Shown here piece by piece: positions 336 to 19,315 of a stretch of 25,834 bases of DNA. The notes beneath the pieces are model-generated. The model saw nothing but the letters and a program-made list of their open reading frames with translations. It ran no database searches and was not told the DNA's origin. The translations under genes and the position numbers were made by a program. This DNA comes from an uncultured archaeon (GTDB lineage Archaea; Altiarchaeota; Altiarchaeia; IMC4; SCGC-AAA252-I15): contig CABMCB010000040.1 of assembly GCA_902384455.1 (NCBI GenBank), positions 1 through 25,834 of the forward strand. The letters run 5' to 3'. Position 1 is the first letter of the stretch. Every line of letters starts with the position of its first letter.

Positions 336-872
336 TCACAGTCCCAACGACCGAAGCAGTTCAGAATTCGGCTGTTCCGGTTCGCTGCACTCGCTCTCCC
401 AAGGCTCGATTGAATTCCTCACTTCGCCTGCCGTTTTGCTAGGGCAGCGAGTTGGTCGTAGCCGTTGGGTGGTTCCTGACCGGCATGGTTTGCCAGGTAA
501 CCGCTCACCATTTCCACGAACAACTTGCGTTGCCCTGTCGTGAAGTCGTAAGCCTGCGCCCGCTTCTCCGCAATCGGCCCGTGCTTGGCCAAAAGCATCT
601 TCTGCGCCTGGACGTGTCCTGAGTTCATAAGTCTCCCTCGAAAAACCTAACTGAGTCTTTGGTTTGGCCAGCTCTACCGCCCAAGCCGAAGTGATGCAGC
701 GGAACCCATCTTCAAATTCTACCATAATGCTGTTCAAAGCACCACGGGCAACAACGCGACATTTGTCGTGGTACCTGTAGACCGGGCGCCACCGCGAGCC
801 AACCCACCGCCAGATATGGTCGTAGATTACTGGCGGCTCTTGGGACCGAACAGCACTACTATCCACACCCAT
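336..872 (-). CDS. Hypothetical small phage protein, boundaries uncertain (protein-like core about 640-830)
   Basis: Internal part of ORF 336..1094; the segment CRVVARGALNSIMVEFEDGFRCITS reads like a small phage beta-barrel protein. The rest overlaps neighbouring ORFs. Confidence 0.35.
   Translation of the reverse strand: MGVDSSAVRSQEPPVIYDHIWRWVGSRWRPVYRYHDKCRVVARGALNSIMVEFEDGFRCITSAWAVELAKPKTQLGFSRETYELRTRPGAEDAFGQARADCGEAGAGLRLHDRATQVVRGNGERLPGKPCRSGTTQRLRPTRCPSKTAGEVRNSIEPWESECSEPEQPNSELLRSLGL
419..628 (-). CDS. Hypothetical protein (69 aa)
   Basis: ATG preceded by RBS GAGGGAG; same strand as the gene cluster. Confidence 0.6.
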   Translation of the reverse strand: MNSGHVQAQKMLLAKHGPIAEKRAQAYDFTTGQRKLFVEMVSGYLANHAGQEPPNGYDQLAALAKRQAK

Positions 873-907
873 AGTATCACCAGCGTCGCGCCAATGGCAC
901 GTTTCAT
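827..907 (-). CDS. Small membrane peptide (26 aa, MKRAIGATLVILWVWIVVLFGPKSRQ)
   Basis: Read by eye, below the ORF-track cutoff. ATGA overlap with the upstream stop; single hydrophobic helix. Confidence 0.45.
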   Translation of the reverse strand: MKRAIGATLVILWVWIVVLFGPKSRQ

Positions 908-1002
908 TTCCAAATCCACCCGCACTTACAGGCCACCGGCTTGTCCGGCGGGTCTGGCTTGCTGAGAGGCTTCTTGCACACTGGGCACTTCCGTTGCCAC
1001 AT
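904..1002 (-). CDS. Small zinc-ribbon protein (32 aa, MWQRKCPVCKKPLSKPDPPDKPVACKCGWIWK)
   Basis: GGAGG RBS 5 nt before ATG at 1002; CxxC...CxC motif. Confidence 0.6.
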   Translation of the reverse strand: MWQRKCPVCKKPLSKPDPPDKPVACKCGWIWK

Positions 1003-1168
1003 GGTTGCCTCCACGCAAGGTCCTGCCAGTGTTCCAACTCTTGCGCAACGGTCTGGCCGCCAAGATGATATCGCAAATCCCGCACGGTGAACAAAGTGTC
1101 CTTTGACAGGTGTGGCCAAATTCCTGGATACTGCGGATTTTTGCCAGCAAAATTCCAAGTTCATTCAT
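926..1168 (-). CDS. Cys-rich hypothetical protein, probable frameshift near 1055
   Basis: Start overlaps the upstream stop, with GGAGGA RBS; motif HxCxxxxCxxCxxC. The more protein-like continuation QTVAQELEHWQDLA is in the -1 frame. Confidence 0.45.
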   Translation of the reverse strand: MNELGILLAKIRSIQEFGHTCQRTLCSPCGICDIILAARPLRKSWNTGRTLRGGNHVATEVPSVQEASQQARPAGQAGGL

Positions 1169-1385
1169 ACGGTTCCTCCTCCCAATGGGCGACTAGACAA
1201 TTGAACCCGACGAAGATGTCCTTGCCCTCGCTGTCATGCCCTTTGTAGACGGCCGGCTCTTCGCCGCACAGGTCGCAAATGTCTGCCACCTTCTTGAGGA
1301 CAACTTGGTTTGCAAGGTACTTCCGTTGTGCTGCCGCGTGGCGGGCTTTCTTCGTGCGTTGAACGTATTGTCTCTTTTTAGCCAT
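1161..1385 (-). CDS. Hypothetical protein with basic N-terminus and putative Zn finger (74 aa)
   Basis: ATG at 1385 overlaps the end of the upstream gene; CDLC...CLVAH motif. Confidence 0.6.
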   Translation of the reverse strand: MAKKRQYVQRTKKARHAAAQRKYLANQVVLKKVADICDLCGEEPAVYKGHDSEGKDIFVGFNCLVAHWEEEPYE

Positions 1386-2213
1386 TGCCGAGTAACCTCC
1401 CAGTCCGGCCAGTGTTGCCTTTGCCGAAGGTGTTTGGTGACAGGTTGATTGCCTGTCCGGAGCGCGCACCACGACCGAACCCACGGTCGTCCCGTTCCTT
1501 AACTCGTCGTCCACCAGACGTCTTGCTTAGGTGGGCGTGCTTGATGTACTTCTTTAATTCCTCTTTTTCCTTGCCGAGATGGACTAGCGCCAATCCGTTG
1601 TTCGTGTCCTGCGCCCTCTTTTCATTTCAGCATAGCGGTCGTACAGGCGAAGGCACACAGCTTGACTAAACCCTTCGTACCAAGAGTCTTTCCATAACCG
1701 CATGGTCTTACGGAACTGGTTGACGTCCCAGTCTTGCCACGGTTGCAGTGAATGGATGTAGTCAAATTTGATTTGTCCCTCATCTTGACGGGCACAGGTT
1801 TCGACAAGGTCATCCGCCAGGCGCAACAGGTAGATGAAGAAGGCTTTGCAGTACTCCCGTTCCGACGTCCGGCCAACGAAGGCCACACCGTTGCCACCCT
1901 TGTTCGCCAACACACAGTGACAGGTGTTGACGTAGGCAAGTGCTTGCGCAAGCCGGACTTGCCACATGCGGCGGCTATCCCGGTACGGGAAGTCCGGGTC
2001 AGTCTGTCCGCACCATTGCCAACCAATCGGTTCGGTTTGCTGGCGCTCCTCAAAGGCCACGTCACTCTCACCGAGTTTGTACTCGTCCATAATGGCCTGA
2101 ATCTTTTCGGCGAATGCCTGGGCCTCGTGGATGCTGCCGATGGACCGACAGGACTGTTCGTGCGCCATTAACTTGCGGAGCCGTTCGAGAACTTCGCGGG
2201 GTGTTCCTGTCAT
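1378..2213 (-). pseudogene. DUF2786-like protein split by a 1-nt frameshift at about 1620 (sequencing error or decay)
   Basis: N-terminus VLERLRKLMA...HEAQAFAEKIQAIMDEYKL fits the DUF2786 pattern. The expected C-terminus (ALVHL...RGARSGQAINL...RLLG) is in ORF 1378..1593; one extra A in ATGAAAAGAGG joins the two. Confidence 0.75.
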
Positions 2214-3086: not shown

Positions 3087-3323
3087 TGCGCTTCCTCACT
3101 TTCGATAACGCATTGGCGGTCGTCGTAAACGCACAGCAGGAGGTCCGTGGCGAGGTCCGTGGCGTTGTCTGTGCCGAAGCTGTAGGCTTCCCACAAGCTC
3201 TCACTAGCAAAGTCCAGCCATCCGCTAAACTTCAAAACGATGGCGCCAATCACGCACCCCGTGGCGCTGTCTTCCACGAAGGTAGTTGCCGGAGGTAACT
3301 TGCTGCGTTGCTTTGAGGTCCAT
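3083..3323 (-). CDS. Hypothetical protein, probable +1 frameshift near 3281
   Basis: RBS GGGAG and ATG at 3323 give MDLKATQQVTSGNY; removing one C continues into FVEDSATGCVIG...EEAQ, whose stop overlaps the next start. Confidence 0.5.
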
Positions 3324-3344
3324 GTGCTCTCCCTTACTGTCACA

Positions 3345-3373
3345 AGTATGGGGCAACCCCGATTCTAGAGCAA
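3345..3373 (-). promoter_or_regulatory. Sigma70-type promoter, copy 1
   Basis: TTGCTC-17 nt-CATACT on the minus strand at the head of the leftward cluster. Confidence 0.65.
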
Positions 3374-3417
3374 TAGTACTTTCCTCCCATTTTCTCATAG
3401 TACAAAAGTATTAGGAC

Positions 3418-3618
3418 TTGCGCGTGGTTACGTCTCCCATATTTGCTATGGCTCTTGCCTCCGCGCAGGCCGCATTGGCCACGGCCGGTGACACGGACCC
3501 ACATGCGTTCCCAGACGGACTAGAAATTGCTGCCGGGCAGCAAATCGGTCTCTCCCAAGTGTGCAACGTGACGACGGCAGGAATCGTCAGTGCAATCCTT
3601 ATCGGGTACGAATATTAA
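3418..3618 (+). CDS. Hypothetical protein or 5'-truncated gene remnant (66 aa)
   Basis: Protein-like C-terminus FPDGLEIAAG...VSAILIGYEY; no clear RBS and an in-frame TAG just upstream. Confidence 0.4.
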   Translation: MRVVTSPIFAMALASAQAALATAGDTDPHAFPDGLEIAAGQQIGLSQVCNVTTAGIVSAILIGYEY

Positions 3619-3621
3619 GGC

Positions 3622-3650
3622 TTGCAATTCATCCAGCCTTGTGGTACATT
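3622..3650 (+). promoter_or_regulatory. Sigma70-type promoter for the tmRNA precursor
   Basis: TTGCAA-17 nt-TACATT with an extended -10 TG; predicted start about 3657. Confidence 0.75.
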
Positions 3651-3656
3651 GACCTT

Positions 3657-4149
3657 GCTGGCGCACCCTACTTTCCGGGGCCTACGGGGCAATGCTTGGA
3701 GGCGTTTCCCGTAGCCTCTTTTCGCGCTAGCTGGTGGAGGCGCTGCGGGAAACCGTGGCACCCAAGATAACGCACGTAAACGGACAAGAGGCTCCATTTC
3801 GGACCGGGGTTCAACTCCCCGCAGGTCCACCGCTAGCACTTCGGGGCTTTTCTAGAAGTGCTCAACTGTGCGCACAGTGTGAAGTGCTAGCAGGTGGGCC
3901 TGACTTGGTTTCGACGGATTGGACGGCGTCTTGCAACCGCGTGCCGAGCAGCCTACCCGACGCAAGGGAAGGCAAACCAAGAATGCCAAACTGGCATCCA
4001 AGGTTGTCGAGTTCGTGAAGCGTACCGCGTCCATCTACACGGTGAATGCGACCATGCCTCACGCACTGGCGGCCTAAAGTAACCTCGGGTGGGGCGGGCG
4101 GGAGTTCGCCCCTGCCGAGACTTGTCACAGCGCCGTGTGTTGTACCAGC
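3657..4149 (+). ncRNA. ssrA: Circularly permuted (two-piece) tmRNA: acceptor piece about 3657-3831, intervening segment 3832-3895, coding piece 3896 to about 4149
   Basis: T-arm CGGGG-TTCAACT-CCCCG (3805-3821) and 3' acceptor strand CAGGTCC-A-CC (3822-3831) lie upstream of the 5' strand GGGCCTG (3896-3902), which is followed by GGTTTCGAC. The stem has the G3.U alanine determinant; helix 2 pairs GCGTGC with GCACGT and TCTTG with CAAGA; the tag frame ends GCA CTG GCG GCC TAA (ALAA, stop 4075-4077). Outer ends are estimates. Confidence 0.92.
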
Positions 4150-4177
4150 CCAAACCCACCAAGGATAGACACGACGA

Positions 4178-5200
4178 ATGTCCCAACACCCAAACGTACA
4201 TCATGCTTGGCAGGATTGGAGCAACGAGGAAACTCTGCACGTTGCTGTTGCTTATTCAAACCCTTTTAGATGGGAGACGCGCCGGCGCCTGCTGCACGAC
4301 TTCCGTCACCACATGAAGAACCAGCCGAACGTGAAGTTGTACGTCGGCGAGCTGGCCTACGGCAACCGGCCGTTTGAAGTCACCGGGGAGCACGCAGGCG
4401 ATGCCCAGTTCCGCACGGACTCAGAACTGTTCCACAAAGAAAACATCCTGAACAAAGTCATTGAGCGGTTCAATGGTGACTGGAAGTATGGCGCCTACGT
4501 GGATGCTGACTTCACTTTCACCCGGCACGACTGGGCGCTGGAAACCATCCACCAGCTCCAACACCACGATTTCGTCCAGCCATTCTCCACGTACACCAAC
4601 CTCACCGCGAAGGTCCTCGGTGGGTCACGGCCAGGCGGTGTCGCCCGCGGGTTCGCCGCAACCTATATCGAGAACGGGTACCAAGTCCCGCAGAACCCCA
4701 GTCATCGGGAGGGCGGTTGGCCAACCGGCGCCGGCATACCCTATGGGACCAAGTGGAATCCTCCCGGCGCAACTGGCGGCGCCTGGGCTTTCACCCGCGA
4801 CGCATTCAACACCGTTGGCGGCCTGATGGACCAGTGTATCCTTGGGCACGCGGATTGGTTTATGACCTTCGGCCTCGTTCAGGAAACAGTCCAGGGTATG
4901 CACGACAATCGTTATCACCCGGCCTACGCCAAACACATCTTGGCATGGCAGGACAAGGCCAAGCTCCTCAAGAAAAACATCGGCTACGTTGACCAGTATG
5001 CCGTACACCACTACCACGGCTCTTTGAAGAATCGCGGGTACGAGAGCCGCGACGGCATCCTGGTGAAGTATCAGTTTGACCCGGTCCACGACCTGCGGAC
5101 AAACTGGCAAGGCATCTACGAGTTGGCCGGAAACAAGCCTGGGCTCCGGGATGCTATCCGCCAGTACTTCAAGCACCGCAGCGAAGACAGCACGGAGTAG
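4178..5200 (+). CDS. Putative glycosyltransferase (GT-A fold-like, 340 aa)
   Basis: DxD motif YVDADF; HKENILN; GGAWAFTRDAFNTVGGLMD...GHAD; late HHYHG motif typical of GT2/GT7-like enzymes. Confidence 0.7.
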   Translation: MSQHPNVHHAWQDWSNEETLHVAVAYSNPFRWETRRRLLHDFRHHMKNQPNVKLYVGELAYGNRPFEVTGEHAGDAQFRTDSELFHKENILNKVIERFNGDWKYGAYVDADFTFTRHDWALETIHQLQHHDFVQPFSTYTNLTAKVLGGSRPGGVARGFAATYIENGYQVPQNPSHREGGWPTGAGIPYGTKWNPPGATGGAWAFTRDAFNTVGGLMDQCILGHADWFMTFGLVQETVQGMHDNRYHPAYAKHILAWQDKAKLLKKNIGYVDQYAVHHYHGSLKNRGYESRDGILVKYQFDPVHDLRTNWQGIYELAGNKPGLRDAIRQYFKHRSEDSTE

Positions 5201-5526: not shown

Positions 5527-5790
5527 GTGCGTAGATTTATTTACCGTGAGATTTTCTTTGCTCACAACGGACCAGGACCATACAACTGCCATTTCTGCGG
5601 ACTTGGCGTGTCGTTTGACGATGTGGCTGTTCACCATGAGGACGAGGATAAAGAAAATAATGACCCCGCGAATCTCAAGGCAGCTCACTTGGTTTGCCAT
5701 TCACGGCACCACATGAAAGACCCTAAAGAATTAGGACGCCTTGGTGGTTTGAAGAAGCGCGTAACACGCGAAGCAAGTTTCGCGGGGTAG
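5527..5790 (+). CDS. HNH endonuclease (87 aa)
   Basis: CHFC...VHHEDEDKENNDPANL...HLVCHSRHH; RBS GAGGAG; located upstream of terminase genes. Confidence 0.85.
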   Translation: MRRFIYREIFFAHNGPGPYNCHFCGLGVSFDDVAVHHEDEDKENNDPANLKAAHLVCHSRHHMKDPKELGRLGGLKKRVTREASFAG

Positions 5791-5854
5791 TTCAGCCAGG
5801 TAGAACGTCGGTCTCATACACCGAAGGTCGTGAGTTCAAATCTCACCCCCGCAA
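5781..5854 (+). tRNA. tRNA-Met(CAT), initiator-like, CCA not encoded
   Basis: Cloverleaf: acceptor CGCGGGG/CCCCGCA with C1xA72 mismatch, D arm GTTC/GAAC, anticodon arm TCGGT-CTCATAC-ACCGA, T arm GTGAG-TTCAAAT-CTCAC. Confidence 0.93.
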
Positions 5855-16845: not shown

Positions 16846-17712
16846 ATGGCAGAATTTCATTCAATGCCTCGCCGTTCGATTCCTGCCACAGGAACTATTG
16901 GAGACGTCTACTACGCAAACGATACCAAGGAACTTTTCTTTGCAATCGGCGCAGGTGGTCTTGTTTCTTTTGCGAGTTTGTTGACAACGGAACCTGATAG
17001 AGTCGGCCCGCAAGGACCAGATGGCCAACAGGGGCCGAAGGGTGATACCGGACAAACCGGGCCACAAGGGCCACAAGGATTGACTGGGCCGCCAGGGCAA
17101 CAGGGGCCGCCAGGTGCGCAAGGTGTGTCTGGCCAACAGGGACCACAAGGGGATGTTGGACCTGCCGGTCCTGCCGGGCCAATAGGCGCCGGAGTGGCCG
17201 GACCTGCCGGGCCAACAGGACCACAAGGGCCAACAGGACCAACAGGACCACAAGGACAGCAAGGGGATTCTGGGCCACGCGGTCCGCAAGGTGACCAAGG
17301 AATTCAAGGTGTCCCGGGCACAGCGGCTCCATTGTATATTTTCATCCAAGGGAACACTGGGCCACAAGGGCCGAAAGGGGATACACCCGGAATGAGCGAC
17401 ATATTTCCTGCTGTTAATTTTGCGTCAGTTTCCGTGTCAGCATCTGGCGCGACCACAGTGGTCGCTGCTGTTACAGGCAAGAAGATTCGTGTTGTTGGTG
17501 TAACATTGAGCGTGAGTAATGACGTGAACCTGAAGTGGCAAAGCCACGTCGCCGGCGACATCACCGGCCTGATATACGCAGGCAAGACAGGCGGCTTCGT
17601 TCTACCGTACTCACCTGTTGGACACTTTGAAACCGCAGTTGGAGAAGCGTTGGATTTGAATTTATCAGCTGGAGTTCCGGTCGGTGGGTCATTGAGCTAC
17701 TATTTGATTTAG
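16846..17712 (+). CDS. Collagen triple-helix repeat protein (fibre)
   Basis: Roughly 38-40 Gly-X-Y triplets in three runs, followed by a beta-rich C-terminal domain. Confidence 0.9.
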
Positions 17713-18277: not shown

Positions 18278-19315
18278 ATGATTATCCTGACCAACGCCAC
18301 AACCGACTCTTTGAAAGTCATCACGGCATCTGGTGTCGTGAATATAGATATGAGTGCTTCGTACGTTGACTACAACGGGTCAACGGTGACGCCTGCGAAT
18401 GCTGTTGCTCAGGTTGCTACGGCTACGACGACAACGCTTGTCGGCACACCGGGAGCGAGTACACAGCGGAACGTCAAGCATGTTCATATCCGGAACTCGC
18501 ACGCAACGTCCTCCAACCTAGTGACGGTTGAGCTGACTATCAACGCGGTGACAGTCACGCTAATCGCGTACACGCTTCTCGCCGGAGAGGCTTTGATGTA
18601 CTACGAGGACGACGGATGGGTTGTGATGGACGCCTCTGGTGGGTTGAAAACAGCAGCGGCAGCTGGCCGCTTTTTGAAGGTAACGGTTCTGACGTCTGGC
18701 ACATCGTTTACAACCGGCGCAGGAACAAACACAATTAAGACAAGATTGCTCGCTGGCGGTGGTGCTGGCGGTGGTGCGGCTTCAGCAACATCATCTGGTG
18801 CTGCGGGAGGCGGCGGCGGCGCAGGCGGTTACGCCGAAAAGACATTTGCTGTAACTCCAAACACTGCCTATACCTACGCGATAGGCGCCGCTGGACTTGC
18901 CGGAGCAACCGGCAACAACCCAGGAGGCGCGGGCGGAAATACAACCTTTGCGGTTGGAGCTACGACTGTGACCGCCAACGGTGGCAACGGTGGAACGGGT
19001 ATGGCCGCGAACGCTGTTGCCGGCACTACCGCGCTCGGTGGTGCACCGGCGACGGTTTCGACCAACGGCGATGTGAATGGCTCAGGTGCGCCAGGTGAAC
19101 AAGGATACTTACAAACGGCAGCCTTGCTTGCCTCAGGAGCTGGCGGCAGTTCTCAATTTGGAGCTGGCGGGAACGTGAGGACGTCGCAAGGTACTGGGAA
19201 CAGTGCCGTAGGATTTGGAGCTGGTGGTGCTGGCGGCGCTTGTGTTAGCGCTGGCGGCGCGGTTGCTGGCGGTGGTGGAACGGCCGGGATAATCATAGTT
19301 GAAGAGTATTCCTGA
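18278..19315 (+). CDS. Glycine-rich virion fibre protein (345 aa)
   Basis: C-terminal GGGGAGG...TANGG...GAGGAGG...GIIIVEEY glycine-rich domain. Confidence 0.85.
   Translation: MIILTNATTDSLKVITASGVVNIDMSASYVDYNGSTVTPANAVAQVATATTTTLVGTPGASTQRNVKHVHIRNSHATSSNLVTVELTINAVTVTLIAYTLLAGEALMYYEDDGWVVMDASGGLKTAAAAGRFLKVTVLTSGTSFTTGAGTNTIKTRLLAGGGAGGGAASATSSGAAGGGGGAGGYAEKTFAVTPNTAYTYAIGAAGLAGATGNNPGGAGGNTTFAVGATTVTANGGNGGTGMAANAVAGTTALGGAPATVSTNGDVNGSGAPGEQGYLQTAALLASGAGGSSQFGAGGNVRTSQGTGNSAVGFGAGGAGGACVSAGGAVAGGGGTAGIIIVEEYS

What the first reader, a model, noticed from the sequence alone, without database searches (positions are those of the whole stretch)
3622..4160. Phage-encoded circularly permuted two-piece tmRNA with its own promoter
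Seen directly: the tRNA-like 3' end (3801-3831) precedes the 5' end (3896), the acceptor stem has G3.U, helix 2 pairs across the two pieces, and a tag frame ends in ALAA-stop. GCTGG (3657-3661) and CCAGC (4145-4149) could clamp the free ends. Established: two-piece tmRNAs are known from Alphaproteobacteria and some cyanobacteria and betaproteobacteria, and phage tmRNAs are uncommon. Inference: the roughly 175-nt acceptor piece with a long hairpin may represent an independent permutation, giving the phage its own ribosome-rescue or proteolysis-tagging RNA that uses host SmpB (no smpB in this window), perhaps to counter defences that cleave RNA or stall ribosomes.
Basis: partly seen in the sequence, partly recalled or inferred. 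Interest (0 to 1): 0.92.

Follow-up and report, generated by a model that had tools for sequence, protein, structure and literature searches.

The report
Phage two-piece tmRNA, mis-binned contig
The window carries a real circularly permuted (two-piece) tmRNA gene on a tailed bacteriophage contig that was wrongly binned into an archaeal genome; it is a divergent member of a kind of phage gene that is already known.

Summary
The core observation holds. Rfam's permuted-tmRNA model hits 3772-4077 (+) at 66.9 bits (cut-off 47). The T arm and 3' acceptor strand (3805-3831) precede the 5' acceptor strand (3896-3902), G3.U is present, helix 2 pairs across the pieces, and a 30-codon tag (3985-4077) ends ALAA-stop. 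One homolog (metagenome contig L230, from a related phage) shows compensatory changes in the helices and 5 synonymous to 1 non-synonymous change in the first 13 tag codons, so the gene looks functional and phage-borne.

The accessory claims fail. The GCTGG/CCAGC clamp is at chance level and lies outside the conserved block (~3724-4122). The promoter is an 8/12 match.

The novelty is overstated. Phage two-piece tmRNAs are published, and my scans found at least 193 permuted-tmRNA signatures on IMG/VR contigs. The acceptor stem, resume context and long tag resemble the beta type, so an independent permutation is not supported. However, no subtype model reaches threshold and only one relative was found.

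The window is a whole contig of an archaeal bin with no SmpB. A sister contig (C25) encodes a lysozyme, a lytic transglycosylase, a pol III beta clamp and a DnaG-type primase. The virus therefore infects a bacterium and is mis-binned.

The parts
3623..3651 (+). Candidate sigma-70-like promoter: TTGCAA, 17 nt, TACATT, with TG at 3643-3644. Weak.
   Evidence: Read. It matches 8 of 12 consensus positions. The scanner (threshold 9 of 12) found no promoter in 3300-4500. It is not conserved in L230.
3657..3723 (+). Window-specific leader with a long hairpin. It is uncertain whether this belongs to the mature RNA.
   Evidence: Minimum-energy fold. There is no counterpart in L230.
3724..3771 (+). Conserved 5' extension of the acceptor piece. 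It holds the invariant UGGUGGAGG (3732-3740) and a small GAAA-loop hairpin.
   Evidence: Aligned with L230. On its own it is not significantly structured (z = -1.3).
3772..3804 (+). Acceptor-piece strands of helix 2 (3772-3801) and the junction to the T arm.
   Evidence: Rfam alignment. Consensus fold with 4 compensatory pairs.
3805..3821 (+). T arm: CGGGG-UUCAACU-CCCCG.
   Evidence: 2 of its 5 pairs are changed on both sides in L230.
3822..3831 (+). Acceptor 3' strand CAGGUCC, discriminator A, then CC. The next base is G, so the terminal A of CCA is not encoded.
   Evidence: L230 encodes the full CCA.
3832..3895 (+). Intervening segment (64 nt), presumably excised. It forms a hairpin stacked on the acceptor stem.
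   Evidence: Fold of 3822-3902: -46.8 kcal/mol, z = -5.8. L230 has the same architecture with a different sequence, z = -6.3.
3896..3902 (+). Acceptor 5' strand GGGCCUG. G3898 pairs with U3826 (G3.U).
3903..3944 (+). D-loop analogue (UGGUUUCGAC) and the coding-piece strands of helix 2 (3915-3944).
   Evidence: Rfam alignment. Consensus fold.
3945..3984 (+). PK1-region hairpin (3951-3973) and the resume context ...CAAACCAAGAAU.
   Evidence: Rfam alignment. Consensus fold with one compensatory pair. The pseudoknot itself was not tested.
3985..4077 (+). Tag reading frame: resume codon GCC, 30 codons (AKLASKVVEFVKRTASIYTVNATMPHALAA), stop TAA at 4075-4077.
   Evidence: Against L230, the first 13 codons show 5 synonymous and 1 non-synonymous change, and the length difference is 3 codons, in frame.
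4084..4119 (+). Bipartite hairpin after the tag stop. Conservation with L230 ends at about 4122.
   Evidence: -27.9 kcal/mol, z = -3.6. L230 has the same shape. 2 compensatory pairs. No U-run follows, and no + strand terminator was called.
5781..5854 (+). Phage tRNA-Met (CAU) with a C1xA72 mismatch. Context: a second translation-related RNA gene of the phage.

Best explanation
The locus is a genuine and probably functional circularly permuted ssrA gene. It is carried by a tailed, lambda/HK97-like bacteriophage whose genome is spread over at least two contigs of the bin (C40, which is the window, and C25; at least 73 kb together). The phage infects a peptidoglycan-walled bacterium, probably a proteobacterium, and its contigs were mis-binned into an archaeal MAG.

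Likely mechanism, inferred from what is established for two-piece tmRNAs:
1. One precursor is transcribed.
2. The tRNA-like fold (acceptor stem, T arm, helix 2) forms across the 64-nt intervening hairpin.
3. RNase P cuts 5' of G3896. 3' processing and CCA repair finish the acceptor piece at 3831 plus an added A. This leaves two RNAs held together by the acceptor stem and helix 2.
4. Host AlaRS charges the RNA through G3.U.
5. Host SmpB and EF-Tu deliver it to stalled ribosomes.
6. Translation resumes at GCC 3985 and appends a 30-residue tag ending ALAA, a degron for host Clp-type proteases.

The likely benefit to the phage is to keep ribosomes free while host and phage mRNAs are being degraded.

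In evolutionary terms it is a divergent offshoot of the beta-type permuted tmRNAs that are common on viral contigs. It is not a separately permuted gene.

SHOWN: the gene anatomy, conservation with compensatory and synonymous changes, the phage context, and the bacterial character of the phage. INFERRED: processing, charging, SmpB dependence, tagging, and the benefit to the phage.
For: GENE.
- RF04321 scores 66.9 bits against a cut-off of 47.
- The anatomy was read directly.

SELECTION.
- L230 aligns at 72% identity over 269 nt and scores 77.4 bits with RF04321.
- The consensus fold has 98 pairs, 20 of them with changes on both sides.
- The first 13 tag codons show 5 synonymous and 1 non-synonymous change, and the tag length differs by an in-frame indel.

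PHAGE-BORNE.
- Terminase, portal, protease, capsid, adaptor and tape-measure genes lie to the right, and a phrog_421 ORF lies to the left.
- L230 genes 1-1157 are homologous to window 398-1742 at 56-78% amino-acid identity, in another arrangement.

BACTERIAL HOST.
- C25 is C40's nearest contig in tetranucleotide space: 0.0095 against a median of 0.033.
- The two contigs share a 23-mer upstream of similar -35/-10 pairs.
- C25 encodes a DnaG-type primase, a pol III beta clamp and a clamp loader.
- C25 also encodes Phage_lysozyme at 154.9 bits and an SLT domain at 53.1 bits. Both families ring only in the bacterial control genomes.
- The nearest terminase, capsid and primase relatives are all bacteriophages.
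- The tRNA-Met has C1xA72, whereas the bin's own initiator-like tRNA has A1:U72.

ARCHAEAL BIN.
- Ribosomal protein S28e is present and so is an archaeal SSU rRNA.
- SmpB is found in 0 of 31 genomes (the bin and 30 relatives).
- A permuted tmRNA is found in 0 of 30 relatives.
- Capsid and terminase homologs are found in 0 of 30 relatives.

BETA-LIKE.
- 84 metagenome contigs share the acceptor stem. 10 of the 11 loci tested are beta_tmRNA over threshold, and the exception is L230.
- The best subtype score for the window is beta, at 43 bits.
Against:
- ARAGORN does not call the window's gene.
- The RF04321 score is the lowest I saw. A random sample of 20 viral loci scored 84.6-172 bits.
- No subtype model reaches threshold: alpha gives no hit, beta 43 against 84, cyano 37.7 against 70. 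Descent from the beta type therefore rests on the acceptor stem, the TLD score and a by-eye reading of the PK1/resume context. It does not rest on a tree.
- The terminal A of CCA is not encoded.
- No convincing promoter or terminator was found.
- The link between C40 and C25 rests on composition, a shared 23-mer and complementary gene content. It does not rest on an assembly join.
- C40 is not a strong compositional outlier in the bin: it ranks 23 of 71 by tetranucleotide distance, and its GC is +1.6 sd.
- The host is not identified, and the best protein identities to known phages are only 30-40%.
Confidence: 0.8

Rival explanations
1. It is the host bacterium's own ssrA, with a prophage integrated next to it. 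ssrA is a classic integration site, so the RNA would not be a phage gene.
For: tmRNA genes are frequent integration sites (PMC4131195 and PMC11915505, passages read). IMG/VR includes proviruses, so some of the pattern hits may be of this kind. The contig is a fragment with no visible ends.
Against: - Phage-type or orphan ORFs lie on both sides, and no cellular gene was seen in 25.8 kb.
- The gene sits between an early-type region and the terminase genes, not at a prophage end.
- A second, diverged phage (L230) keeps the gene next to homologous phage genes in a different arrangement.
- No cellular genome among 400 (class) and 401 (phylum) sampled has a match beyond the 35-40-nt TLD core.
Confidence: 0.05
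2. It is a fourth, independently permuted tmRNA lineage that arose in or is confined to phages. It would have its own architecture: a long acceptor piece with a conserved 5' extension and a single 3' hairpin.
For: - No alpha, beta or cyano model reaches threshold, whereas 20 of 20 randomly sampled viral permuted tmRNAs do.
- A conserved ~48-nt 5' extension is present that the beta model lacks. In the beta model the first ~50 positions are unpaired and carry a promoter-like TTGA...TATAAT consensus.
- GGUGGA occurs in the upstream block of only 2 of 270 other permuted tmRNAs, and one of those is L230.
- Only one relative was found.
Against: - The acceptor stem GGGCCUG/CAGGUCC is identical to that of 83 other metagenome genes, and all 9 of those tested are beta-type.
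- The TLD scores best with beta.
- The PK1 hairpin and the ...AAUGCCAA... resume context align with the beta/general consensus.
- The intervening length of 64 nt and the long tag are typical of the collected beta-like set: 68 of 135 heuristic tags are 22 aa or longer, and one begins AKL.
- Divergence alone explains the failure of the subtype models.
Confidence: 0.1
3. The virus really infects the archaeon of the bin, or the archaeon captured the gene. That would make this a tmRNA operating, or idling, in an archaeal setting without SmpB.
For: - The contig is binned with an archaeal genome and is not a strong compositional outlier.
- 73 tmRNA genes have been reported in archaeal MAGs, with their origin left open (PMC11915505, passages read).
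- G3.U recognition by AlaRS is universal (recalled).
Against: - The sister contig C25 encodes a muramidase and a lytic transglycosylase, a bacterial-type beta clamp and a DnaG-type primase.
- The tRNA-Met has C1xA72, while the bin's initiator-like tRNA has A1:U72.
- Intergenic -35/-10-like motifs are present.
- The nearest relatives are all bacteriophages.
- 0 of 30 related archaeal genomes have the capsid, the terminase, a permuted tmRNA or SmpB.
- No CRISPR-spacer-like match to C40 exists in the bin. The only short exact match is to C25 and is not in a repeat array.
- GC is 55% in C40 and C25 against 50.5% for the bin.
Confidence: 0.02
4. It is a decaying or decoy copy that no longer tags proteins. 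One version is a TLD-only SmpB titrator, like the mycobacteriophage DS6A element. Another is a hitch-hiking fragment picked up by imprecise excision.
For: - DS6A-type TLD-only elements exist and inhibit tmRNA (PMC4131195, passages read).
- The Rfam score is low, ARAGORN does not call the gene, CCA is incomplete, and no clear promoter or terminator was found.
Against: - The full gene is present, with both TLD halves, helix 2, the PK1 region, the tag and the 3' hairpin.
- The tag frame is kept open in two diverged phages, with 5 synonymous and 1 non-synonymous change and an in-frame indel.
- The helices keep their pairing through compensatory changes.
Confidence: 0.03

Closest known systems
Beta-type permuted (two-piece) tmRNA, Rfam RF01850 beta_tmRNA, including the many copies on IMG/VR viral contigs
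   Same: - Gene order: 3' TLD half, then the intervening segment, then the 5' TLD half and the tag.
- An identical acceptor stem, GGGCCUG/CAGGUCC, with G3.U.
- The helix 2 layout, the PK1 hairpin, and a GCC resume codon in an ...AAUGCCAA... context.
- An intervening segment of 40-70 nt.
- Long tags ending ALAA occur in this group (heuristic).
   Different: - The beta model aligns only positions 76-170 of 331, at 43 bits against a cut-off of 84.
- The window and L230 share a conserved ~48-nt extension 5' of helix 2, with an invariant UGGUGGAGG. In the beta model the region 5' of helix 2 is unpaired and carries a promoter-like consensus.
- After the tag there is one bipartite hairpin and no U-run. 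The beta type has a hairpin plus a terminator-like hairpin.
- The tag sequence is unrelated beyond the first residues.
Phage-encoded two-piece tmRNAs already in print, such as OM43 phage Melnitz and pelagimyophages (Buchholz et al. 2022, PMC9004378)
   Same: A complete permuted ssrA on a phage genome that has no smpB, alongside phage tRNA genes. The proposed roles are keeping the hijacked translation machinery running or tagging proteins (passages read).
   Different: - Those are alpha-type genes on ~140-kb T4-like myophages, and in Melnitz the gene is described as controlled by a glutamine riboswitch.
- Here the gene is beta-like and sits on a lambda/HK97-like phage with a siphovirus-type tail tube.
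- Rfam found no riboswitch in the window.
tmRNA genes reported in archaeal MAGs (tmRNA database update 2025, PMC11915505)
   Same: A permuted tmRNA in a metagenome-derived archaeal assembly. The authors list 19 permuted genes among 73 and favour mis-binning (passages read).
   Different: Here the vehicle can be named: a bacteriophage with a peptidoglycan hydrolase and a bacterial-type replisome. I could not check whether this very sequence is among their 73, because the supplementary tables are closed.
One-piece phage tmRNAs (mycobacteriophage Bxz1 group, Bacillus phage G) and the TLD-only element of phage DS6A (PMC4131195)
   Same: A phage-borne ssrA-type RNA that depends on host SmpB (passages read).
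   Different: Those are of standard (unpermuted) or truncated form. This one is permuted and complete.

Membership tests
Permuted (two-piece) tmRNA, Rfam RF04321 | Covariance-model score at or above the family's gathering score | tested here: met
   66.9 bits against 47, model positions 1-213 of 213, at 3772-4077 +. It is the only such hit in the 2.41-Mb assembly.
Permuted (two-piece) tmRNA, Rfam RF04321 | Circular permutation: the T arm and 3' acceptor strand with (A)CC are encoded upstream of the 5' acceptor strand, separated by an intervening segment | tested here: met
   3805-3831 precedes 3896-3902, and a 64-nt hairpin lies between them.
Permuted (two-piece) tmRNA, Rfam RF04321 | Seven-pair acceptor stem with G3.U, the alanine identity element (recalled) | tested here: met
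   GGGCCUG pairs with CAGGUCC, and G3898 pairs with U3826. The stem is invariant in L230.
Permuted (two-piece) tmRNA, Rfam RF04321 | Helix 2 pairs the acceptor piece with the coding piece | tested here: met
   23 predicted pairs: 4 changed on both sides, 2 on one side, 0 broken, from two sequences.
Permuted (two-piece) tmRNA, Rfam RF04321 | Tag reading frame that starts at an Ala resume codon and ends in a hydrophobic ...LAA degron plus a stop | tested here: met
   GCC at 3985, 30 codons...PHALAA, TAA. 5 synonymous and 1 non-synonymous change in the first 13 codons, and an in-frame indel against L230.
Permuted (two-piece) tmRNA, Rfam RF04321 | Pseudoknot PK1 upstream of the resume codon | tested here: inconclusive
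   A hairpin at 3951-3973 with one compensatory pair. The second stem of the pseudoknot was not examined.
Permuted (two-piece) tmRNA, Rfam RF04321 | Precursor cleaved into two RNAs; alanylation; SmpB-dependent trans-translation | not testable with these tools
No SmpB in the assembly.
beta_tmRNA, Rfam RF01850 | Full-length match at or above the gathering score of 84 bits | tested here: not met
   43 bits, model positions 76-170 of 331 only. Genuine beta-type loci score 89-299 bits.
alpha_tmRNA, Rfam RF01849 | Match at or above the gathering score of 50 bits | tested here: not met
   No hit on C40, even at E up to 10.
cyano_tmRNA, Rfam RF01851 | Match at or above the gathering score of 70 bits | tested here: not met
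   37.7 bits, model positions 49-128 of 288 only.
Phage-encoded gene (as opposed to host ssrA beside a prophage) | Phage genes on both sides, and the gene retained in a related phage | tested here: met
   for the flanks. L230 keeps the gene next to homologs of window 398-1742.
Virus of Archaea | Host-specific machinery compatible with an archaeal cell, and association with the archaeal lineage | tested here: not met
   Muramidase and SLT domain; beta clamp and DnaG-type primase; tRNA-Met with C1xA72; 0 of 30 related archaeal genomes have the capsid or terminase.

The most novel reading that the evidence does not exclude
The window and L230 define a phage-restricted architectural variant of two-piece tmRNA. 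In it, a conserved 5' extension of the acceptor piece presents UGGUGGA, which is exactly complementary to the 3'-terminal UCCACC(A/G): 7 pairs in both homologs. This pairing could sequester or guide maturation of the aminoacylatable end, giving a built-in switch for processing or charging that cellular tmRNAs lack. An even bolder reading, that the virus works in the archaeon of the bin, is not strictly excluded, but I put it at about 2%.
Probability: 0.12. Interest if true: 0.55.

Novelty: new member of a known kind. Interest (0 to 1): 0.3.

Why it matters
**Annotation.** This is a bona fide tmRNA gene that ARAGORN misses and that only the general Rfam permuted model detects.

**tmRNA biology.** It adds a divergent, phage-borne relative of the beta-type two-piece tmRNAs. 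Its tag is kept under purifying selection in two phages. This supports the view that phages use trans-translation actively and do not merely carry ssrA fragments.

**Metagenomics.** This is a worked example for the open question raised in the 2025 tmRNA database paper, namely whether 'archaeal' tmRNAs are real. Here the tmRNA reached an archaeal MAG on a mis-binned bacteriophage contig, one that marker-gene contamination estimates (0.9%) cannot see. The same bin also holds two near-complete tRNA arrays, which suggests further viral DNA.

None of this changes what is known about how tmRNA works.

Tried and rejected
1. One search used a pattern with one N too many. It could not match even the window, so its zero result is void. 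The pattern was corrected and tested on the window before being reused.

2. blastn of 3600-4200 against 50,697 phage records found no match.

3. Relatives found through the large terminase:
- 9 IMG/VR loci at 40% identity or less, none with a tmRNA.
- 1 locus in the GTDB representative genomes (Oleiphilaceae, 40%).

4. BLAST of the RNA against 193 viral and 83 metagenome permuted tmRNAs. Only L230 matches beyond the TLD.

5. Lineage-specific patterns in IMG/VR. A 15-mer from helix 2 gave 11 hits, none of them a tmRNA. The resume-region pattern gave 0 hits.

6. BLAST of 3724-4122 against sampled genomes:
- 400 genomes of the class and 401 of the phylum of the one proteobacterial handle were scored.
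- Nearly all matches cover only the 35-40-nt T-arm/acceptor core.
- A few 24-38-nt matches fall elsewhere, and I take them as chance.
- One genome (G279) was not scored.
- These are samples of roughly 1% of the group, so the result is 'not found in those searched'.

7. The idea that the 23-mer shared with C25 was a CRISPR spacer was rejected. There is no repeat array, and the match lies in an intergenic promoter-like region.

8. The ORF at 4178-5200 as a possible SmpB-like partner was rejected. It has no Pfam or PHROG family, and the Atlas neighbours are viral hypothetical or glycosyltransferase-like clusters.

9. Long tag as a novelty was rejected. 68 of 135 heuristic tags in the collected set are 22 aa or longer. 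The tag finder is my own crude regex and failed on 141 of 276 sequences.

10. I considered building a covariance model from the two homologs and did not do it. Two sequences add little beyond BLAST, and the length would exceed the calibration limit.

11. I did not make a tree of permuted tmRNAs, so the placement near the beta type is not phylogenetically tested.

12. I did not search for an integrase, so the phage's lifestyle is open.

13. The supplements of PMC11915505 and PMC9004378, which may list this sequence or close relatives, are closed and were not seen.
Full report
**1. The observation**

- Rfam release 15 finds two RNA genes in the window. One is a tRNA-Met at 5781-5854. The other is tmRNA_permuted (RF04321) at 3772-4077 on the + strand, at 66.9 bits against a gathering score of 47, covering the whole model.
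  - T arm: 3805-3821.
  - Acceptor 3' strand CAGGUCC, then ACC: 3822-3831.
  - 64-nt intervening segment: 3832-3895.
  - Acceptor 5' strand GGGCCUG: 3896-3902, with G3898 pairing U3826.
  - The UGGUUUCGAC element, then the second strands of helix 2.
  - An in-frame tag from GCC 3985 to TAA 4075-4077 reading AKLASKVVEFVKRTASIYTVNATMPHALAA.
- A degenerate permuted-TLD pattern matches once in the window and in 0 of 100 shuffles.
- ARAGORN reports only the tRNA-Met.

Two accessory claims do not hold.

- *The clamp.* The proposed GCTGG/CCAGC clamp is at chance level: 4 complementary 5-mers against a shuffle mean of 2.68, and 29% of 2000 shuffles reach 4. It lies outside the conserved block.
- *The promoter.* The proposed promoter matches 8 of 12 consensus positions plus a TG. 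The scanner called no promoter and no + strand terminator in 3300-4500.

**2. Is it a working gene?**

- A scan of metagenome contigs for permuted tmRNAs with the same acceptor stem returned 84 loci.
- BLAST against the 83 loci I could extract shows that only one, L230 (1,927 bp), resembles the window beyond the tRNA-like core: 72% identity over 269 nt, window 3769-4022.
- L230 scores 77.4 bits with RF04321 and, like the window, reaches no subtype threshold. ARAGORN calls it 'Permuted'.
- The pairwise alignment shows homology from about 3724 to about 4122 and little on either side.
- The two-sequence consensus fold predicts 98 pairs, 20 of them changed on both sides. That includes 4 in helix 2, 2 in the T arm and 2 in the hairpin after the tag.
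- In both sequences the acceptor stem plus intervening segment folds into one long hairpin (z = -5.8 and -6.3), built from different sequences. Both also keep a bipartite hairpin after the stop codon.
- The L230 tag is AKLASKVVEFGKRVAAKVVPAQLALAA. The first 13 codons differ from the window by 5 synonymous changes and 1 non-synonymous change, and the length difference is 3 codons.

Together this argues for selection on both the RNA structure and the encoded peptide.

**3. Whose gene is it?**

- To the right of the RNA lie an orphan 340-aa ORF, the tRNA-Met, small and large terminase, portal, protease, major capsid, adaptor, head-completion, tail-tube and tape-measure genes.
- To the left lie small ORFs. 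One is in phrog_421 and carries the DUF2786 and DUF7168 domains.
- L230's protein genes (1-1157) are homologous to window 398-1742 at 56-78% amino-acid identity, but in the opposite orientation relative to the tmRNA.
- So two diverged phages keep this gene. A host ssrA beside a prophage is therefore unlikely.

**4. The genome context**

The window is the whole of contig C40 in a 2.41-Mb, 103-contig assembly. That assembly is archaeal.

- Ribosomal protein S28e is present; it rings only in the archaeal control genomes.
- An archaeal SSU rRNA is present.
- No SmpB was found in it or in 30 relatives up to order level, 0 of 31.
- No standard tmRNA scores over the cut-off.
- No permuted tmRNA was found in the 30 relatives.

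I therefore tested whether the virus could be archaeal. The evidence says it is a bacteriophage.

- A 23-nt exact match (E = 8e-4) links window 3371-3393 to contig C25. In both contigs it lies just upstream of a TTGnnn, 17 nt, CATAnT motif and a gene start, and not in a repeat array.
- C25 (47.7 kb, 54-55% GC) is the nearest contig to C40 in tetranucleotide space: 0.0095 against a median of 0.033.
- C25 carries the modules C40 lacks: UvrD and SNF2 helicases, a DnaG-type primase, a DNA pol III beta clamp, a clamp loader and GTP cyclohydrolase I.
- C25 also carries a Phage_lysozyme domain at 154.9 bits and an SLT domain at 53.1 bits. Both families ring only in bacterial controls.
- The nearest terminase, capsid and primase relatives among 50,697 phage records are all bacteriophages, at 24-40% identity.
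- The contig's tRNA-Met has a C1xA72 mismatch, whereas the bin's own initiator-like tRNA (C11) has A1:U72. Reading these as bacterial and archaeal initiator types is recalled knowledge.
- 0 of 30 related archaeal genomes have a homolog of the capsid or the terminase.

I conclude that C40 and C25 are parts of one bacteriophage of at least 73 kb that was mis-binned. This is the null hypothesis that the 2025 tmRNA database paper proposed for its 73 'archaeal' tmRNA genes, 19 of them permuted (PMC11915505, passages read).

**5. Comparison with known tmRNAs**

*Already in print.*
- Buchholz et al. 2022 describe a two-piece tmRNA in phage Melnitz. They count 53 two-piece forms (as called by ARAGORN) among 133 unique tmRNA structures found in 402 of 18,146 phage genomes (PMC9004378, passages read).
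- Huge phages carry tmRNAs and even SmpB (PMC7162821, passages read).
- One-piece tmRNAs are listed for mycobacteriophages and Bacillus phage G (PMC4131195, passages read).

*My scans.*
- In a random sample of 20 of the 70 short loci, 19 are beta_tmRNA and 1 is alpha_tmRNA over threshold. Their RF04321 scores are 84.6-172 bits.
- Of 11 further loci tested, 10 are beta-type and the exception is L230.

*Where the window's RNA differs.*
- Alpha gives no hit, beta gives 43 bits against 84, and cyano gives 37.7 bits against 70.
- It has no similarity beyond the TLD to any of the 193 viral sequences.
- It has none to the 400 and 401 sampled proteobacterial genomes.

*Where it resembles the beta type.*
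- It shares the exact acceptor stem.
- It has the best TLD score with the beta model.
- The PK1 hairpin and the ...AAUGCCAA... resume context match (read by eye).
- The intervening-segment length is in the same range.
- Tag length is in range: 68 of 135 heuristically found tags are 22 aa or longer, and one begins AKL.

*What is distinctive.*
- A conserved ~48-nt extension 5' of helix 2. In the beta model that region is unpaired and carries a promoter-like consensus.
- A single 3' hairpin.

I read it as a divergent offshoot of the beta-type family. An independent permutation is possible but not supported, and no tree was made.

**6. Mechanism**

What is shown is the anatomy and its conservation. 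The rest follows from established knowledge of two-piece tmRNAs (recalled, and the introductions of PMC11915505 and PMC9004378):
1. One precursor is made.
2. RNase P cuts at G3896.
3. The 3' end is matured at 3831, with the terminal A added because the gene reads CCG.
4. AlaRS charges the RNA through G3.U.
5. Host SmpB and EF-Tu deliver it to stalled ribosomes.
6. Translation resumes at GCC and a 30-residue ...ALAA degron is added.

No smpB is in the assembly, so the unidentified host must supply it. The benefit to the phage, keeping ribosomes free during infection, is an inference.

**7. An unexplained detail**

- The invariant UGGUGGA (3732-3738) is complementary to UCCACCG (3826-3832), giving 7 pairs including one U.G. 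The L230 equivalent is complementary to UCCACCA, giving 7 Watson-Crick pairs (read).
- GGUGGA occurs in the equivalent upstream block of 2 of 270 other permuted tmRNAs, one of them L230. It also occurs in 971 of 20,000 shuffles of the window's own block.
- Both partners are invariant, so there is no covariation. This is a lead only.

**8. Limits**

- Only two sequences support the structure.
- Earlier findings could not be consulted.
- Supplements of the cited papers were not visible.
- The join between C40 and C25 is inferred, and the host is unknown.

**9. Verdict**

This is a real, probably functional, phage-encoded two-piece tmRNA. It is a new and divergent member of a known kind, sitting on a mis-binned bacteriophage contig. 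Interest 0.3.

Noticed in passing
window 3371-3393 and G000:C25:23491-23513 (L298:3491-3513): An exact 23-mer is shared in inverted orientation (E = 8e-4). In both contigs it lies directly upstream of a TTGnnn, 17 nt, CATAnT motif and a gene start. It is probably a shared operator or UP-like element of the phage's early promoters.
   Followed up: partly
window 5781-5854: The phage tRNA-Met (CAU) has a C1xA72 mismatch, which is the bacterial initiator type (recalled). Only two of the three G:C pairs usual in the anticodon stem are present; the third is U-A. The archaeal bin's own initiator-like tRNA (C11) has A1:U72.
   Followed up: partly
G000 contigs C59 (49310-58891), C38 (18856-28629), C4: Two ~10-kb arrays of 34 and 30 tRNA genes (C59, C38) and 25 tRNA calls spread over C4. 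C59 and C38 share 27 anticodons at 71.5% mean identity. The bin also has 41 scattered tRNAs. These are probably further large-virus contigs in the archaeal bin. A short tblastx hit links L230 to C38:18324-18419.
   Followed up: partly
window 3732-3738 versus 3826-3832; L230 1397-1403 versus 1491-1497: The conserved UGGUGGA in the 5' extension is fully complementary to the 3'-terminal UCCACC(G/A) of the acceptor piece in both homologs. There is no covariation, and the motif appears in about 5% of shuffles.
   Followed up: partly
L230 about 1160-1290: A tRNA-like element lies upstream of the L230 tmRNA: a GGGTTCAAATCCCAC T arm and a 7-bp acceptor-like pairing, about 105-120 nt long. Neither ARAGORN nor Rfam at gathering threshold calls it. 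It may be a tRNA with a long insert.
   Followed up: no
G000:C25:33229-34305 (L298:13229-14305): One ORF combines an HNH endonuclease region (residues ~3-172) with GTP cyclohydrolase I (residues 177-356). The latter is typical of phage 7-deazaguanine DNA-modification pathways (recalled).
   Followed up: no
IMG/VR loci L073 and L223; metagenome locus L222: Beta-type permuted tmRNA genes on viral or metagenome contigs often sit beside tRNA arrays (12 tRNA hits on L073, 12 on L223). Many carry long tags of 23-39 aa by my heuristic, for example ANADTFDFSAMSFTGNTVRGAANESRFALAA in 8 loci.
   Followed up: partly
G000:C28:5768-6232: An Amidase_2 (N-acetylmuramoyl-L-alanine amidase) domain at 45.4 bits on another contig of the archaeal bin. 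It is possibly another bacterial or phage contaminant.
   Followed up: no
window 16846-17712: A collagen triple-helix repeat protein lies between the head-tail adaptor and a glycine-rich tail-fibre-like protein (18278-19315). It is a likely fibre or decoration protein.
   Followed up: no
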